A stretch of DNA of 64,000 bases from a virus (Duplodnaviria > Heunggongvirae > Uroviricota > Caudoviricetes). A program made the position numbers and the translations under genes. The notes below the pieces were generated by a model. That model was not told the DNA's origin. It did not search any database and saw only the letters and a list, made by a program, of their open reading frames with translations. The stretch spans positions 35,895 to 99,894 of the IMG/VR virus record IMGVR_UViG_3300031521_000016; one strand, written 5' to 3'. Position 1 is the first letter of the stretch. The number at the start of each line of letters is the position of its first letter. Of the stretch, positions 1,479 to 4,357 are shown piece by piece.

Positions 1479-1822
1479 ACTTTTCCTTTTCCTTTTGTTG
1501 CTTGTTTTCCGAATGTTACGGCATATCTGTTCATGATTTCTTTATCATTTTCAGCATCTAATACATTCAGATATTCTTCAATAACTTTATATGCTCGATA
1601 GAACTTTGTATCTGCTTCAGATAATTCACGAATCTGTTCAGCATGATAATGAGAACCTCCTGTGTCTTCCCATATTGCTAAAAGACCGTTTTCATTTTTC
1701 GATTCTGCTATCCATTCTGATCCGTCTTTTTTGATAAATCCTTTGATAGTATTTAACAATTCTTTAGTAGAAATTGTGATCCACACTTCTTCTTGTTTTG
1801 TTCCCTTTACTTGTACATTCAT
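1475..1822 (-). CDS. hypothetical protein
   Basis: Track ORF; 4-nt overlaps with both neighbours. Confidence 0.5.
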   Translation of the reverse strand: MNVQVKGTKQEEVWITISTKELLNTIKGFIKKDGSEWIAESKNENGLLAIWEDTGGSHYHAEQIRELSEADTKFYRAYKVIEEYLNVLDAENDKEIMNRYAVTFGKQATKGKGKV

Positions 1823-2649
1823 TTTGTAAGATTTGTTAATAGTTCCTTAAACTCTGAATCATTTATTCTCAATCCAATATTGTTTACGACACCTCTAAAT
1901 GATACCGATTTAGCAGATACATGATTAGCAAATTTAATAGATAGCTCATGATCATTTGATTGCATATATGCAAATGCAAATGCAGCTAAGAATACGTCTC
2001 CAGCTCCAGAAACATCCATAAGTTCAACTGGAGTGACCAAAGAAAATATCTTATTATTCAATCTAGCACCTCTTTTCCCTAAAGTGATGATTAATCTATC
2101 ATCTTTCTGCAGATGTTTTATAGTCTCATTCATTCCACAGTTTTTAAATTCTGCTTCATTTATTTTTATCCAGTTAAAATTCCATGCCCATTCAGATATA
2201 CGTTTCTTCGTATCTAAAAAAGAAATTTTGGCATATTTAGCAATAGTACGTAAATCTTCAGTAGACAAAAATCCTTTATCGTAATCAGATACAACTACAT
2301 AATCTGCTTCCTTTATCAGTTTCATAATAGAATCAGTCAGTACTATTTCATCTACTTTGTCATTTTCATCCACTCTTAGTAAGATATGATTGTGCAATTC
2401 TTCAACATAACGCTCTTTAATGATCGTTTTAATTGGACATACATAGTTGATCTCTGTTTGGTCATGCGCATTTATCTTATTGTATAAAGATTCTAAATTC
2501 TTATAAAGATTTCCTGCCATGCCGTAGCTTTCTACTGTATATTTGGGAGTGAAAATCGGAGATGGTGCTTCCGGATTTAGTCTATTTACATCACCGTAAT
2601 GAAATCTATCTGTACAACTTTCACCTATAATTACTATTTTCATTGTCAT
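1819..2649 (-). CDS. PfkB-family carbohydrate kinase (ribokinase/HldE kinase-domain-like)
   Basis: N-terminal KIVIIGESCTDRF...NPEAPSPIF and C-terminal DVSGAGDVFLAAFAFAY (the GAGD anion-hole motif of ribokinase-like kinases). Confidence 0.75.
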   Translation of the reverse strand: MTMKIVIIGESCTDRFHYGDVNRLNPEAPSPIFTPKYTVESYGMAGNLYKNLESLYNKINAHDQTEINYVCPIKTIIKERYVEELHNHILLRVDENDKVDEIVLTDSIMKLIKEADYVVVSDYDKGFLSTEDLRTIAKYAKISFLDTKKRISEWAWNFNWIKINEAEFKNCGMNETIKHLQKDDRLIITLGKRGARLNNKIFSLVTPVELMDVSGAGDVFLAAFAFAYMQSNDHELSIKFANHVSAKSVSFRGVVNNIGLRINDSEFKELLTNLTK

Positions 2650-2852
2650 TTTATTTTGCTTGAACTAGCTGTGTTAATAAAGCTAGTACTTATTTTACTC
2701 CATGCATAGTCATCAATTTCCAGAGTAGCTATACCTGTTATCGGATCGTATGAAATTATGCTTCCTACATTTACATCATTTACTTTAACTGGCTTCGTAG
2801 TTATTTCACCCATGTCTTTACCCAAGAAGACTGTTACGTTTATCATTTTCAT
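2646..2852 (-). CDS. hypothetical small protein
   Basis: Track ORF between the kinase and nucleotidyltransferase genes. Confidence 0.3.
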   Translation of the reverse strand: MKMINVTVFLGKDMGEITTKPVKVNDVNVGSIISYDPITGIATLEIDDYAWSKISTSFINTASSSKIK

Positions 2853-3261
2853 TGTTCAAGATTTTTGTGGTTGATATATCTGGTATACGTTCATAGTATT
2901 TTATCGTAGGAATATATTCAGATCCGATTATTTTTTTGTCTTTATAGTCTGACCCGATGACCATAACATCTGGCTTTACGCCTTTAATTATGTTTTCTAA
3001 TTCAGTATCACTGTTAAACACATATACTCTATGCACACATTTGAGTGCTCCAAGCATACGTATTCGTTTCTCAATACTGAATATTGGTCTATCTGGCCCT
3101 TTCAATTCTTGTACTCTTTCGTCAGAATCTATGCCAACATGCAATTCACCAATTCGTGATGCATATTCTAGAAGACACAGATGACCGTAGTGAAATACGT
3201 CAAATGTACCGTTTACCCAAACTCTCATATTATACAGTAATTTCACACCAGTGTGATACAC
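2818..3261 (-). CDS. cytidylyltransferase-superfamily nucleotidyltransferase (HldE domain II / glycerol-3-P cytidylyltransferase / NMNAT-like)
   Basis: NGTFDVFHYGHL carries the (H/T)xGH signature of class-I nucleotidyltransferases. Likely true start is M13 (MRVWVNG). Confidence 0.7.
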   Translation of the reverse strand: MYHTGVKLLYNMRVWVNGTFDVFHYGHLCLLEYASRIGELHVGIDSDERVQELKGPDRPIFSIEKRIRMLGALKCVHRVYVFNSDTELENIIKGVKPDVMVIGSDYKDKKIIGSEYIPTIKYYERIPDISTTKILNNENDKRNSLLG

Positions 3262-3439
3262 CAGTTATTAAATTTGTCGATATATCTTGATCGTAGAAAG
3301 ACAATGGCAGAAATCTGAAGTTGATACTATCCCATAAAACTACCATGTATCCGCAGTTATGATCAATCTTCACTAGAACTTCTTTCATGTGAAATTTAGG
3401 ACCGGGTAAATGTCCTTGACCTACATAATGCCAAGTCAT
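3230..3439 (-). CDS. hypothetical protein
   Basis: Track ORF; small overlap with the neighbouring gene. Confidence 0.3.
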   Translation of the reverse strand: MTWHYVGQGHLPGPKFHMKEVLVKIDHNCGYMVVLWDSINFRFLPLSFYDQDISTNLITGVSHWCEITV

Positions 3440-3783
3440 AATGAGTAATACTGTTTCATATCCTCTCTGATTTCAAATTTCCCGTCTGGATTGAAAACAA
3501 TAGCCGCTTTTTTCACCAAAGGAGCATCTTCATGATCGAATCTACCGTCCATCTCATATAGAATAAACAGCTTCTCATTCAAATCTTGTGCTAATTGTAC
3601 AAGCGTCTCCTTACTTTTCGTGATATCGATGTCACCGAACCATACTTTGTTTTTTTCAGTACATATATTCGCATTAAATATTACGAAATTGTCTGGATTT
3701 TTCTGTCTGTACCATGACTTACTGCCAGATAACATTACTCCGTAATAACCTAGCTTTTTTACTATTTGTTCTTGATCTATCAT
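3436..3783 (-). CDS. hypothetical protein (shares N-terminal MIDQEQI with the next gene)
   Basis: Track ORF. A 20-nt direct repeat covers its start codon and the start codon of the adjacent gene. Confidence 0.45.
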   Translation of the reverse strand: MIDQEQIVKKLGYYGVMLSGSKSWYRQKNPDNFVIFNANICTEKNKVWFGDIDITKSKETLVQLAQDLNEKLFILYEMDGRFDHEDAPLVKKAAIVFNPDGKFEIREDMKQYYSL

Positions 3784-3785
3784 AA

Positions 3786-3986
3786 TTATGCGAATATTCC
3801 GTGTTCTATTTTCAGTAACTCATTTTCAATCAATTTAATGCCAACTGCATTATTGAGTAGTTCTTTTGGTTTTGACCCGCCTAATGCTAAATTCTCTACA
3901 TTAAGCCACTGTTCAAATTTTTCTTCATCAATAAAAACTTCTTTCCCTTTTTGAAAAATCTGCGATATTTGTTCTTGATCTATCAT
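3786..3986 (-). CDS. orphan ParS/MbcA/Xre-type antitoxin C-terminal domain (DUF2384-like)
   Basis: ALGGSKPKELLNNAVGIKLIENELLKIEHGIFA matches the LGGxxPxxLL...G...L.rIEhGvfa signature of the toxin-binding domain of RES-toxin antitoxins. Confidence 0.55.
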   Translation of the reverse strand: MIDQEQISQIFQKGKEVFIDEEKFEQWLNVENLALGGSKPKELLNNAVGIKLIENELLKIEHGIFA

Positions 3987-4357
3987 ATCTGTGATTGTGA
4001 ATCGCCTGGTCCCACTCTATATGAATCATGATCGAAATGCTCAGTTGACACTTCAATTATTTTGCCTCCTAATGTGGAAGCTGTCAATTTATGTGGAAAT
4101 CCAGGATCTATAGTTAATATCTGTCCTTTGTCGAAAGTTACTGTCTTTCTGGATGCATCAAGCGTATTGATATAGTCTAAAATGAAAGTGCCATCTAGTA
4201 CATACCAAGTTTCTGTTTTTTCAATGTGAAAATGCATTGAGAATGAAGCATGTGGATAAAACTCTAATATTTTTCCACAGTATTTATGTGAATTGTGGAG
4301 AATAATTTCTCTTCCCCACTTCTTTTCTATTACTTCTGGCTTAGATATAAATGACAT
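3983..4357 (-). CDS. cupin-domain protein
   Basis: Cupin_2-like motifs (G..H.H...E...Y...G, then PGFPHKL) in a 124-aa single-domain barrel. Confidence 0.6.
   Translation of the reverse strand: MSFISKPEVIEKKWGREIILHNSHKYCGKILEFYPHASFSMHFHIEKTETWYVLDGTFILDYINTLDASRKTVTFDKGQILTIDPGFPHKLTASTLGGKIIEVSTEHFDHDSYRVGPGDSQSQI

What the first reader, a model, noticed from the sequence alone, without database searches (positions are those of the whole stretch)
1819..4357. Split HldE-like sugar kinase plus nucleotidyltransferase, with a cupin, in a phage
A PfkB-family kinase (1819-2649) lies next to a class-I cytidylyltransferase-like protein with an HxGH motif (2818-3261), followed by a cupin (3983-4357). 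This mirrors the two domains of HldE, which make ADP-heptose, or other sugar-1-P nucleotidyltransferase pathways. Phage sugar-nucleotide pathways are used for DNA hypermodification/glycosylation, or to alter the host surface. An alternative reading is an NAD-related nucleotide salvage pathway. In that case a P-loop nicotinamide riboside kinase would be expected, but the kinase here is PfkB.
Basis: partly seen in the sequence, partly recalled or inferred. Interest (0 to 1): 0.6.

Follow-up and report, generated by a model that had tools for sequence, protein, structure and literature searches.

The report
Phage ADP-heptose-type sugar activation genes
A huge phage carries a sugar kinase, a nucleotidyltransferase and a small metal-binding isomerase-like protein that most likely make an activated seven-carbon sugar (ADP-heptose type); this gene set is already known from other large phages, and what the sugar is attached to is still unknown.

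Summary
1819-2649(-) is a PfkB kinase whose best family match is HldE domain I. 2818-3228(-) is an HxGH/ISTT nucleotidyltransferase whose best match is HldE domain II. 3983-4357(-) is a metal-site cupin. All three are 32-41% identical to a gene set in T4-like cyanophages. The kinase family occurs on at least 573 viral contigs.

Across 169 kinase loci:
- The nucleotidyltransferase co-occurs with family-9 (heptosyl) glycosyltransferases.
- The cupin co-occurs with the nucleotidyltransferase and with a small GmhB-like HAD phosphatase.
- The cupin does not co-occur with SDR enzymes and almost never with GmhA.
- One archaeal genome fuses an HldE-type kinase to this cupin.

The best reading is a phage ADP-heptose-type pathway in which the cupin probably replaces GmhA as the isomerase. 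No phosphatase, SDR or GT9 lies in the window.

The genes sit in one tight operon. Just outside the window it continues through an exonuclease, a canonical thymidylate synthase, a GT2 and a WecB epimerase. The NAD reading is not supported. DNA glycosylation is unsupported but not excluded. Iyer et al. (2021) already described this kind of cluster in jumbo phages, so this is a new member of a known, biochemically untested kind.

The parts
4794..4817 (-). Terminator-like hairpin (10-bp stem followed by a T-rich tail), lying between the secreted endonuclease gene and the operon that holds the sugar genes. It is the likely upstream boundary of the transcription unit.
   Evidence: No other terminator-like site was found on the minus strand between 4794 and 1.
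4398..4790 (-). First ORF of the unit (130 aa from the GTG; 121 aa in the gene calls on identical contigs). No family match.
3983..4357 (-). Small single-domain metal-site cupin (124 aa), with motif H42-x-H44-x-x-K47-x-E49 ... H89. It is the proposed sugar(-phosphate) ketol isomerase, functionally replacing GmhA.
3786..3986 (-). 66-aa stand-alone Xre/MbcA/ParS antitoxin C-terminal (toxin-binding) domain. It is an insertion relative to close relatives and probably not part of the sugar pathway.
   Evidence: Pfam E=6.4e-11. Absent between cupin and the next gene in L098.
3436..3783 (-). 115-aa orphan protein that lies between cupin and transferase in this lineage. No recognisable fold; role unknown.
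3230..3439 (-). 69-aa ORF with no match, called as a gene on identical contigs.
2818..3228 (-). HldC / HldE-domain-II-like nucleotidyltransferase (136 aa from the ATG at 3228; the longest ORF starts at the GTG at 3261). HYGH motif at 3181-3192; ISTT motif near the C-terminus.
2646..2852 (-). 68-aa ORF overlapping the end of the transferase gene and the start of the kinase gene. In a 48%-identical relative it is fused to the N-terminus of the kinase.
1819..2649 (-). Short HldA / HldE-domain-I-like PfkB sugar kinase (276 aa). It keeps the GAGD catalytic motif, the SDYxKG, DxK and NxxE motifs, and an HldE-type N-terminal lid.
1475..1822 (-). 115-aa ORF with no match, in the same operon.
789..1478 (-). 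DEDDh (RNase T / DnaQ-like) exonuclease. It lies downstream of the kinase in the close relative L095 as well.
583..786 (-). 67-aa ORF, in the same operon.
1..586 (-). N-terminal 195 residues of a 364-aa thymidylate synthase, cut by the window edge. On identical contigs it is followed directly by a GT2 glycosyltransferase and a WecB-type UDP-GlcNAc 2-epimerase.

Best explanation
The three genes form a phage-encoded sugar-activation module of the ADP-heptose type.

Proposed steps (all inferred):
1. The cupin, a metal-dependent ketol isomerase, converts a ketose phosphate into the manno-configured aldose phosphate. The most likely substrate is sedoheptulose 7-phosphate.
2. The short HldA-like kinase phosphorylates the anomeric O1.
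3. A phosphatase removes the distal phosphate. None is encoded in the window, so this step would fall to a host GmhB or to a gene elsewhere in the phage.
4. [quoted passage not shown]

What is shown:
- the family assignments and the intact catalytic motifs;
- the operon structure;
- the conservation of the trio in other viruses;
- the association of relatives with heptosyltransferase-family genes.

What is inferred:
- the identity of the sugar and of the nucleotide;
- the isomerase role of the cupin;
- the source of the phosphatase;
- the acceptor.

The genes are co-transcribed with an exonuclease, a thymidylate synthase, a GT2 glycosyltransferase and a UDP-GlcNAc 2-epimerase. The product is therefore probably used during infection to build or alter a glycan. 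Candidate acceptors are the host surface polysaccharide or LPS, virion proteins or, less likely, DNA.
For: Family level:
- The kinase scores 105 bits on rfaE_dom_I against 46 bits on ribokinase. The transferase scores 101 bits on rfaE_dom_II against 49 bits on TagD.
- The best PDB sequence match of the kinase is HldA, 4e84.
- Aligned with E. coli HldE, nearly every residue that is invariant in the viral kinase family has the same identity in HldE. These include the lid residues K78, R80, R92 and D94 and the motifs SDYxKG, DxK, NxxE and GAGD. The transferase shares NGxFDxxHxGH, KGxxRP and STT.

Conservation:
- Kinase, transferase and cupin are 32-41% identical to adjacent genes in P-SSM2, P-TIM68 and Sf-FS3.
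- The kinase family is on at least 573 viral contigs.

Context that points to heptose:
- Nine of ten tested neighbours of the kinase or transferase carry a Glyco_transf_9 domain above Pfam's cut-off.
- GT9-like genes lie within 6 kb in 14 of 80 viral loci.
- In Ferruginibacter and Chitinophaga genome assemblies (contigs up to 4.8 Mb) the same short kinase sits in transferase-kinase-GT9 clusters.
- Transferase and GT9 co-occur (Fisher p=2e-5).
- L092 holds transferase, cupin, HAD and kinase, with a GT9 protein about 3 kb away.

Role of the cupin:
- In 169 loci it co-occurs with the GmhB-like HAD (40 of 62 cupin loci against 2 of 107 others; p=2e-20) and with the transferase (p=1e-8).
- It does not co-occur with SDR enzymes (p=0.15).
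- It occurs with a GmhA-type SIS gene in 1 of 62 cupin loci, against 10 of 107 others (p=0.057).
- No SIS gene lies in the 87 loci scanned (80 viral contigs, 3 cyanophages, 4 metagenome contigs) or in the window.
- In L185 an HldE-type kinase is fused to this cupin family and is followed by a transferase and a GT9 gene.
- The metal ligands HxH..E..H are invariant.

Operon:
- Start and stop codons overlap or abut from 4357 down to 1, with no internal terminator-like site.
- The unit continues into ThyA, GT2 and WecB on identical contigs.
Against: - Neither enzyme reaches the curated equivalog cut-off (105 against 345 bits; 101 against 181.5 bits).
- The kinase lacks about 60 residues of HldE domain I, so its substrate could differ.
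- The window has no HAD phosphatase, no SDR (HldD-type) epimerase and no GT9. The only glycosyltransferase seen near it is a generic GT2.
- About half of the viral kinase loci lack this transferase family within 6 kb.
- Two loci hold both a GmhA-type domain and the cupin: L146 and L088. This is awkward for a simple replacement of GmhA.
- The co-occurrence counts ignore the relatedness of the loci.
- No biochemical data exist for any member of these viral families.
Confidence: 0.6

Rival explanations
1. The chemistry is the same but the sugar differs. The cupin is a phosphomannose isomerase (fructose 6-phosphate to mannose 6-phosphate), and kinase plus transferase make an NDP-mannose or another NDP-hexose rather than an NDP-heptose.
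For: - The cupin passes Pfam's MannoseP_isomer cut-off, marginally (24.3 against 23.6 bits).
- Sources annotate homologues as 'mannose-6-phosphate isomerase-like'.
- The shortened kinase could have a changed substrate pocket.
- The window has no GT9.
Against: - Kinase and transferase are specifically closest to the heptose enzymes.
- Relatives cluster with GT9 heptosyltransferase-family genes, also in loci that hold the cupin (L009, L010, L036, L061, L075).
- Cells normally reach mannose 1-phosphate through a mutase, not through a kinase-phosphatase pair (own knowledge).
Confidence: 0.15
2. The cupin is not the isomerase. It is a tailoring enzyme acting on the finished nucleotide sugar, for example a CapF/WbuC-like C3-epimerase of a 4-keto intermediate. 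The isomerase step is then left to the host GmhA.
For: - There is a weak WbuC-family match (E=0.004).
- L088 and L146 hold both a GmhA-type SIS domain and the cupin.
- Many related loci hold several SDR enzymes.
Against: - Such epimerases need an SDR oxidoreductase to make and reduce the 4-keto sugar (own knowledge). The cupin is not associated with SDR genes (p=0.15), and none lies in this 64-kb window.
- The cupin tracks the HAD phosphatase and the transferase instead.
- It is fused to the kinase in L185.
- The WbuC score is far below its cut-off (16.9 against 42 bits).
Confidence: 0.15
3. The activated sugar is used to glycosylate the phage's own DNA.
For: - The genes sit in an operon with DNA and nucleotide enzymes: a DEDDh exonuclease and a thymidylate-synthase homologue, then a dNMP-kinase-like gene about 4 kb further on.
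- A phage cluster of a HAD/APH bifunctional enzyme, a cytidylyltransferase and a GT-B enzyme was shown to put heptose on 5hmC (doi 10.1101/2023.12.21.572611).
- Phage RB69 makes its DNA sugar by an isomerase-kinase-phosphatase-transferase route (PMC13326640).
- That preprint reports GT-A-like enzymes next to ThyA homologues as one signature of such clusters.
Against: - The ThyA homologue keeps C146, N177 (uracil-specific) and the other canonical residues. It passes the curated thymidylate-synthase cut-off (295 against 108 bits) and is closest to phage td genes, not to dCMP hydroxymethylases.
- No cytosine methyltransferase, TET-like oxygenase or T4-type DNA glucosyltransferase was found among the roughly 70 proteins scanned, 56 of them by Pfam.
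- The GT2 resembles polysaccharide synthases.
- The epimerase next to it is a standard WecB.
Confidence: 0.1
4. The pair is an NAD or nucleotide salvage route: a nucleoside or ribose kinase plus an NMN-type adenylyltransferase.
For: - The transferase belongs to the same HxGH superfamily as NMN adenylyltransferases (own knowledge).
- The window also encodes Sir2, a PARP-like ADP-ribosyltransferase and a NUDIX hydrolase.
Against: - At the thresholds used, no NMN/NaMN adenylyltransferase model appears among the matches of the transferase.
- The kinase scores only 24.6 bits on the one nucleoside-kinase model listed.
- Relatives sit among glycosyltransferases, sugar epimerases, aminotransferases and sugar phosphatases.
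- The NAD-related genes are 9-47 kb away.
Confidence: 0.02

Closest known systems
[quoted passage not shown]
   Same: - Same two folds and catalytic motifs.
- They are the best family matches for both proteins.
- Separate kinase and transferase genes, as in HldA/HldC.
- Relatives are linked to GT9 heptosyltransferase-family genes.
   Different: - Scores lie far below the curated equivalog cut-offs.
- The kinase is about 60 residues shorter, with two deletions.
- No GmhA, GmhB or HldD homologue is in the window.
- A cupin stands where an SIS-fold isomerase would be expected.
Sugar gene clusters of T4-like cyanophages (P-SSM2 PSSM2_309-312 and relatives). Sullivan et al. 2005 called them 'LPS genes'. 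Iyer et al. 2021 described them as jumbo-phage 'capsular polysaccharide modification systems' with PfkB kinases, HIGH nucleotidyltransferases, cupin isomerases, HAD phosphatases, SDR enzymes and glycosyltransferases.
   Same: - Kinase, transferase and cupin are homologous at 32-41% identity and clustered.
- Same PHROG families: 8133, 7878 and 7851.
- Both papers offer predictions only, with no biochemistry.
   Different: - This phage is not a cyanophage. Its portal and ThyA are closest to uncultured phage genomes of 460-735 kb and to the Lak phages.
- It has only the trio, without the HAD phosphatase, SDR enzymes, carbamoyltransferases or 2OG oxygenases.
- The trio is interrupted by small lineage-specific ORFs.
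- It is embedded in an operon of nucleotide-metabolism genes.
Transferase-kinase-GT9 clusters in Ferruginibacter and Chitinophaga (Bacteroidota) genome assemblies
   Same: - The same short form of the kinase (274-289 bits on the viral-family profile, 35-38% identity), directly adjacent to the same transferase family.
   Different: - They are cellular, they carry a GT9 gene and often an SDR gene, and they have no cupin.
Phage DNA sugar pathways: the heptosyl-5hmC cluster of 'contig 53' (HAD/APH bifunctional enzyme + cytidylyltransferase + GT-B) and the RB69/DLP3 arabinose route (isomerase, kinase, phosphatase, nucleotidyltransferase)
   Same: - The same logic: a sugar phosphate is phosphorylated at C1, the distal phosphate is removed, and the sugar is joined to a nucleotide.
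- A cytidylyltransferase-fold enzyme makes an activated heptose in a phage.
   Different: - The kinases there are APH-like, not PfkB. The RB69 transferase has the MurU/GlmU-like fold.
- Those clusters include a modified-pyrimidine synthase and a DNA glycosyltransferase. Neither was found here.
Small cupin sugar isomerases: the archaeal cupin phosphomannose isomerase (PDB 7zvy) and the D-lyxose/D-mannose isomerases (PDB 3kmh, 7nzo)
   Same: - Single cupin barrel with an HxH..E..H metal site.
- The HxHxxKxE spacing matches what I recall for lyxose isomerases (own knowledge, not tested).
   Different: - Sequence matches are weak (Lyx_isomer 17.4 bits against a 20.8-bit cut-off).
- The family has its own invariant residues: K12, W14, G15, E17, K29, E102, D111 and R114.
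- Its substrate is unknown.

Membership tests
[quoted passage not shown] | Scores best on this model among PfkB subfamilies | tested here: met
   105 bits on rfaE_dom_I, 60 bits on full HldE, 46 bits on ribokinase. The best PDB match is HldA, 4e84.
[quoted passage not shown] | Reaches the curated equivalog score | tested here: not met
   105.3 bits against a cut-off of 345.
[quoted passage not shown] | Catalytic and substrate-region motifs shared with E. coli HldE (N-terminal GDxxxDxYxxGxxxRxxPEAPxP, K-x-R...R-x-D lid, SDYxKG, DxK, NxxE, GAGD) | tested here: met
   Alignment with E. coli HldE residues 1-325. Invariant columns of 25 family members.
[quoted passage not shown] | Full-length domain of about 310-320 residues | tested here: not met
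   Family members are 245-276 aa. Two segments of HldE are missing: about 18 residues after the GGAANV region, and a helix before the second half.
[quoted passage not shown] | Phosphorylates heptose 7-phosphate at O1 | not testable with these tools
   Needs an enzyme assay.
HldE domain II / HldC (heptose-1-phosphate adenylyltransferase, TIGR02199) | HxGH and ISTT motifs of the class-I nucleotidyltransferase fold | tested here: met
   HYGH and ISTT are present and align with HAGH and STT of E. coli HldE.
HldE domain II / HldC (heptose-1-phosphate adenylyltransferase, TIGR02199) | Scores best on this model; reaches the curated equivalog score | tested here: inconclusive
   It is the best model (101.3 bits against 48.9 for TagD) but lies below the 181.5-bit cut-off.
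HldE domain II / HldC (heptose-1-phosphate adenylyltransferase, TIGR02199) | Uses ATP and beta-heptose 1-phosphate | not testable with these tools
   Needs an enzyme assay. ADP is inferred only from the family match and the GT9 context.
GmhA (sedoheptulose-7-phosphate isomerase, SIS fold) | SIS fold | tested here: not met
   The candidate isomerase is a cupin. No SIS homologue is in the window or in the 87 loci scanned. If the cupin does this step, it is an analogue of the family, not a member.
Type II phosphomannose isomerase cupin domain (PF01050) | Reaches Pfam's gathering score; metal ligands present | tested here: met
   24.3 bits against 23.6, so only marginally. H42, H44, E49 and H89 are invariant in 40 homologues.
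D-lyxose/D-mannose isomerase (PF07385) | Reaches Pfam's gathering score | tested here: not met
   [not shown]
CapF / WbuC cupin (sugar-nucleotide C3-epimerase type) | Family score, and partnership with an SDR oxidoreductase | tested here: not met
   [not shown]
Phage DNA sugar-hypermodification cluster | A ThyA homologue converted to a hydroxymethylase or hydroxylase (for cytosine: Asp in place of Asn177), or a methyltransferase plus TET-like oxygenase | tested here: not met
   The ThyA homologue keeps C146, H147, N177, R166, D169, H207 and Y209. It passes TIGR03284 (295 against 108 bits). No MT or TET was found among the proteins scanned. Only about 70 kb of a much larger genome was seen.
Phage DNA sugar-hypermodification cluster | A DNA glycosyltransferase next to the sugar genes | tested here: inconclusive
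   A GT2 lies four genes downstream of the kinase. Its acceptor cannot be told, and its sequence matches are to polysaccharide synthases.
NAD salvage (nicotinamide riboside kinase + NMN adenylyltransferase) | The transferase matches NadD/NadR/NMNAT models; the kinase matches nucleoside kinases | tested here: not met
   No such model is among the matches of the transferase (max E 0.01). The kinase scores 24.6 bits on a nucleoside-kinase model against 105 bits on rfaE_dom_I.

The most novel reading that the evidence does not exclude
The phage makes ADP-heptose on its own through a cupin isomerase that is a non-homologous replacement of GmhA. It then uses the sugar not for LPS but to heptosylate its own DNA or virion proteins as a shield against host defences. 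The operon with an exonuclease, thymidylate synthase and GT2 would then be a new type of nucleic-acid or virion glycosylation cluster in a huge phage.
Probability: 0.1. Interest if true: 0.7.

Novelty: new member of a known kind. Interest (0 to 1): 0.35.

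Why it matters
If the prediction holds, a very common viral gene set makes ADP-heptose or a close analogue independently of the host. The set occurs on at least 573 viral contigs, including abundant marine cyanophages. That would:
- give a chemical identity to the long-standing 'LPS genes' of cyanophages;
- add a cupin-fold enzyme as an alternative to GmhA;
- give a handle for finding what large phages glycosylate (host envelope, virion or DNA).

For this window alone the gain is modest. 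It extends the known module to a huge phage related to the Lak phages and shows a minimal three-gene form of it.

Tried and rejected
- Nucleotide search of 1-8000 against phage genomes found no match.
- A single-sequence pattern scan of viral contigs with the kinase found nothing. An alignment-based scan was needed.
- I looked for the missing phosphatase among the small ORFs between the genes. None of them recurs in the 87 related loci then held.
- I searched the whole window with profiles of the viral HAD, SDR and GT1 families and with GmhA. There were no hits.
- The Thymidylat_synt gene just outside the window first looked like the hallmark of a DNA-hypermodification cluster. Residue checks and curated cut-offs show an ordinary thymidylate synthase. 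The 'Epimerase_2' gene is an ordinary WecB rather than a disguised glycosyltransferase.
- Literature searches found no biochemical work on these viral families.

Full report
**Observation.**
The window is AT-rich (about 33% G+C) and almost all genes are on the minus strand.

- 1819-2649 encodes a 276-aa PfkB-family kinase (Pfam E=1.1e-15).
- The ORF ending at 2818 encodes a cytidylyltransferase-like protein (E=3.8e-19) with an H-Y-G-H motif at 3181-3192 and a C-terminal ISTT motif.
- 3983-4357 encodes a 124-aa cupin (Cupin_2 E=1.1e-7).

One correction is needed. The transferase almost certainly starts at the ATG at 3228 (136 aa), not at the GTG at 3261. Homologues and the gene calls on identical contigs both show this.

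The genes are not strictly adjacent. A 68-aa ORF lies between kinase and transferase. Three ORFs (69, 115 and 66 aa) lie between transferase and cupin. Every junction overlaps by 4 nt or is separated by 1-2 nt. The exception is a 35-nt overlap at the end of the transferase gene.

A strong terminator-like hairpin at 4794-4817 precedes the unit, and none lies inside it.

The phage nature of the window is clear. It has a T4-type portal (E=1.2e-62) and a gp15 homologue. The portal is 43% identical to that of a 462-kb uncultured phage and about 36% identical to those of the Lak phages of Prevotella. The host is probably a member of the Bacteroidota. That is an inference from these relatives, from the G+C content and from the signal peptide of the secreted endonuclease at 4918-5547.

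**What the two enzymes are.**
Among curated bacterial families, the kinase scores best on HldE domain I (105 bits; ribokinase 46). The transferase scores best on HldE domain II (101 bits; glycerol-3-phosphate cytidylyltransferase 49). Both are far below the equivalog cut-offs (345 and 181.5 bits). They are therefore HldE-like, not certified orthologues.

The best solved relative of the kinase is HldA of Burkholderia cenocepacia. For the transferase the best are human ethanolamine-phosphate cytidylyltransferase, a 'putative cytidylyltransferase' (5x9q), which I believe is HldC of Burkholderia pseudomallei (own knowledge), and TagD.

I aligned 25 family members with E. coli HldE.
- Nearly every invariant residue of the viral kinase family is identical in HldE. 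This covers the N-terminal G-D-x3-D-x-Y-x-Y-G-x3-R-x-x-P-E-A-P, a K-x-R...R-x-D pair of strands in the lid, SDYxKG, DxK, NxxE and the catalytic GAGD.
- The family is about 60 residues shorter than HldE domain I because of two deletions.
- The transferase shares NGxFDxxHxGH, KGxxRP and STT with HldE domain II.

No NMN/NaMN adenylyltransferase model matched the transferase, and the kinase scored only 24.6 bits on a nucleoside-kinase model. The NAD-salvage alternative can be set aside.

**The trio is a recurrent viral gene set.**
There is no nucleotide-level relative among sequenced phages. At protein level, however, the kinase and the cupin each hit 35 phage records, almost all the same: T4-like cyanophages and marine single-virus genomes.

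In P-SSM2, Sf-FS3 and P-TIM68 the homologues of kinase (32-38%), transferase (32-41%) and cupin (32-35%) lie together. With them is a 108-114-aa protein annotated 'phosphoheptose isomerase'. It is in fact a minimal HAD phosphatase (DIDGT motif). There are also SDR 'nucleotide-sugar epimerases'.

PHROGs holds the three as families 8133 (no function), 7878 ('bifunctional heptose 7-phosphate kinase/...') and 7851 ('cysteine dioxygenase').

The kinase family has 705 database clusters at E<=1e-10 and occurs on at least 573 viral contigs.

Sullivan et al. (2005) called the P-SSM2 clusters 'LPS genes'. Iyer et al. (2021) explicitly listed PfkB kinases, HIGH-superfamily nucleotidyltransferases, cupin sugar isomerases, HAD phosphatases, SDR enzymes and glycosyltransferases as 'capsular polysaccharide modification systems' of jumbo phages. 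Neither paper, nor any other I could find, tested the chemistry.

**Which sugar.**
I clustered the proteins around the kinase in 88 sources: 80 viral contigs, 3 cyanophages, 4 metagenome contigs and the first 14 kb of the window. I then scanned with profiles built from those clusters.

Among the 80 viral loci, within 6 kb of the kinase:

| Partner | Loci |
|---|---|
| Transferase | 43 |
| Cupin | 37 |
| SDR enzymes | 36 |
| GT1-type glycosyltransferases | 31 |
| Small HAD | 23 |
| Family-9 (heptosyltransferase) glycosyltransferase-like gene | 14 |

Nine of ten such GT9 candidates passed Pfam's Glyco_transf_9 cut-off. One also gave a weak match to the N-terminal domain of TibC.

One 102-kb phage contig (L092) has transferase, cupin, HAD and kinase in a row, with a DUF5672-GT9 protein about 3 kb away.

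In a scan of one genome per prokaryotic species, the same short kinase appears in Ferruginibacter and Chitinophaga assemblies (contigs up to 4.8 Mb). There it lies in transferase-kinase-GT9 clusters, often with an SDR gene. The more distant, full-length relatives in methanogens and other lineages sit with GmhA, GT9 and a fused or adjacent transferase, which is the textbook ADP-heptose set.

Over all 169 loci the transferase and GT9 co-occur (Fisher p=2e-5). Characterised GT9 enzymes use ADP-heptose as donor, with few exceptions (own knowledge). [quoted passage not shown]

**What the cupin does.**
- The four metal ligands (H42, H44, E49, H89) and K47 are invariant in 40 homologues. So are K12, W14, G15, E17, K29, E102, D111 and R114.
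- Context is more telling. In the 169 loci the cupin goes with the GmhB-like HAD (40 of 62 cupin loci against 2 of 107 others, p=2e-20) and with the transferase (p=1e-8). It does not go with SDR enzymes (p=0.15). It occurs with a GmhA-type gene in 1 of 62 cupin loci against 10 of 107 others (p=0.057).
- No GmhA homologue is in any of the 80 viral loci or in the window.
- In an archaeal metagenome-assembled genome (L185), one ORF joins a full-length HldE-type kinase (residues 34-326) to this cupin family (336-449). A transferase and a GT9 gene follow it. The other fusions seen among these loci all join core steps of one pathway: kinase-transferase, HAD-transferase and SIS-transferase.

The simplest reading is that cupin and HAD supply the two steps that cells otherwise get from GmhA and GmhB. 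In that reading the cupin is the isomerase that feeds the kinase.

Two loci with both an SIS domain and the cupin (L088, L146) argue against a strict one-for-one replacement. The statistics do not correct for shared ancestry. I put this step at roughly even odds.

**What is missing here, and the neighbourhood.**
The 64-kb window has no HAD of the viral family, no SDR, no GT1 or GT9 and no GmhA. Scans of 56 window proteins against Pfam and of 18 against PHROGs showed no glycosyltransferase in the window. The phosphatase step must come from the host or from elsewhere in the phage, or the kinase works on an unphosphorylated sugar.

Close relatives (48-67% identity) keep the orders cupin / 115-aa protein / transferase (L098) and 115-aa protein / transferase / kinase / small ORF / exonuclease (L095). 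In L095 the 68-aa ORF is fused to the kinase. The 115-aa protein has no recognisable fold, and elsewhere it is not linked to sugar genes.

Contigs that carry the same genes (kinase 99% and cupin 99% identical; the 115-aa protein 100% identical) extend beyond the window's left edge. There the operon runs on through:
- a 364-aa thymidylate synthase, whose first 195 residues are window 586-1;
- a GT2 glycosyltransferase;
- a UDP-GlcNAc 2-epimerase;
- about 4 kb further on, a dNMP-kinase-like gene.

At first sight this looks like a DNA-hypermodification cluster, but it does not hold up.
- The synthase keeps the nucleophile C146, the uracil-specific N177 and the other canonical residues. It passes the curated thymidylate-synthase cut-off (295 against 108 bits) and is closest to phage td genes.
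- The epimerase passes the WecB cut-off.
- The GT2 resembles polysaccharide synthases.

Phage DNA heptosylation has a precedent: a HAD/APH enzyme, a cytidylyltransferase and a GT-B enzyme acting on 5hmC. The RB69 arabinose route uses the same isomerase-kinase-phosphatase-transferase logic. Nothing in the roughly 70 kb examined, however, provides a modified base to glycosylate.

**Verdict.**
The finding is a genuine, correctly recognised HldE-like kinase/transferase pair with an associated cupin. It is a minimal member of a widespread viral sugar-activation module that has already been described but never tested.

New in this analysis:
- the link of the family to GT9 genes;
- the cupin-HAD-transferase association and the kinase-cupin fusion, which point to a cupin replacement of GmhA;
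- the operon context in a Lak-related huge phage.

The use of the sugar remains open.

Noticed in passing
window 3786-3986 (-): A 66-aa protein that consists only of the toxin-binding C-terminal domain of Xre/MbcA/ParS antitoxins (Pfam E=6.4e-11). It is inserted between the cupin and the next gene and is absent at this place in the relative L098. It could be a decoy against RES-type NAD-degrading toxins.
   Followed up: partly
[not shown]
   Followed up: partly
window 2646-2852 (-); L095 768-1796: The 68-aa ORF that overlaps both the transferase and kinase genes is fused to the N-terminus of the kinase in a 48%-identical relative (342-aa protein P0003). It may be a small accessory domain of the kinase.
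   Followed up: partly
L185 7902-9287 (archaeal MAG ARS1414): A natural fusion of a full-length HldE-type kinase domain with the same cupin family, followed by a separate nucleotidyltransferase and a GT9-like gene. Related fusions elsewhere are HAD-transferase (L146 10641-11435) and SIS-transferase (L088 10922-11866).
   Followed up: partly
window 1-586 (-), continuing in L104 11808-14862: A thymidylate synthase of 364 aa with three insertions (about 40, 19 and 41 aa) but canonical active-site residues, cut by the window edge. A GT2 glycosyltransferase and a WecB-type UDP-GlcNAc 2-epimerase follow it directly in the same operon.
   Followed up: yes
window 13398-14084, 22007-23263, 50625-51176 (all -): A Sir2-family protein (E=6.8e-45), a protein with a PARP catalytic domain (E=5.8e-22) and a NUDIX hydrolase (E=4.5e-15). 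This is a notable set of NAD/ADP-ribose-related genes in one phage region.
   Followed up: no
window 15250-15795, 20104-20940, 37131-37895, 42395-43588 (all -): An RNA repair or tRNA maintenance set: cREC_REC cyclic-phosphate-processing receiver domain, a Thg1-like tRNA-His guanylyltransferase, a CCA-adding/poly(A) polymerase head domain and an RlaP nucleotidyltransferase. No tRNA gene is in the window. A metagenome contig whose kinase is 49% identical (L004) also has RlaP, cREC_REC and an RNA ligase nearby.
   Followed up: no
window 4918-5547 (-) and 5572-5976 (-): A DNA/RNA non-specific endonuclease with an N-terminal signal-peptide-like segment (MMKLFLISLFSLFFINSFSQ), next to a small P-loop AAA_33 kinase that weakly resembles the kinase domain of polynucleotide kinase-phosphatase.
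   Followed up: no
window 7715-9340 (-) and 9355-10920 (-): A DUF2201 protein (putative metallopeptidase plus VWA-like domain) with a long acidic low-complexity insert, paired with an AAA ATPase. A ClpP-like protease follows at 11171-11827.
   Followed up: no
window 30026-30958, 31061-32923, 35009-35917 (all -): A radical SAM protein, a 620-aa SPFH/Band 7 protein and a cation-efflux (CDF) transporter with a zinc-transporter dimerisation domain. These are unusual cargo for a phage.
   Followed up: no
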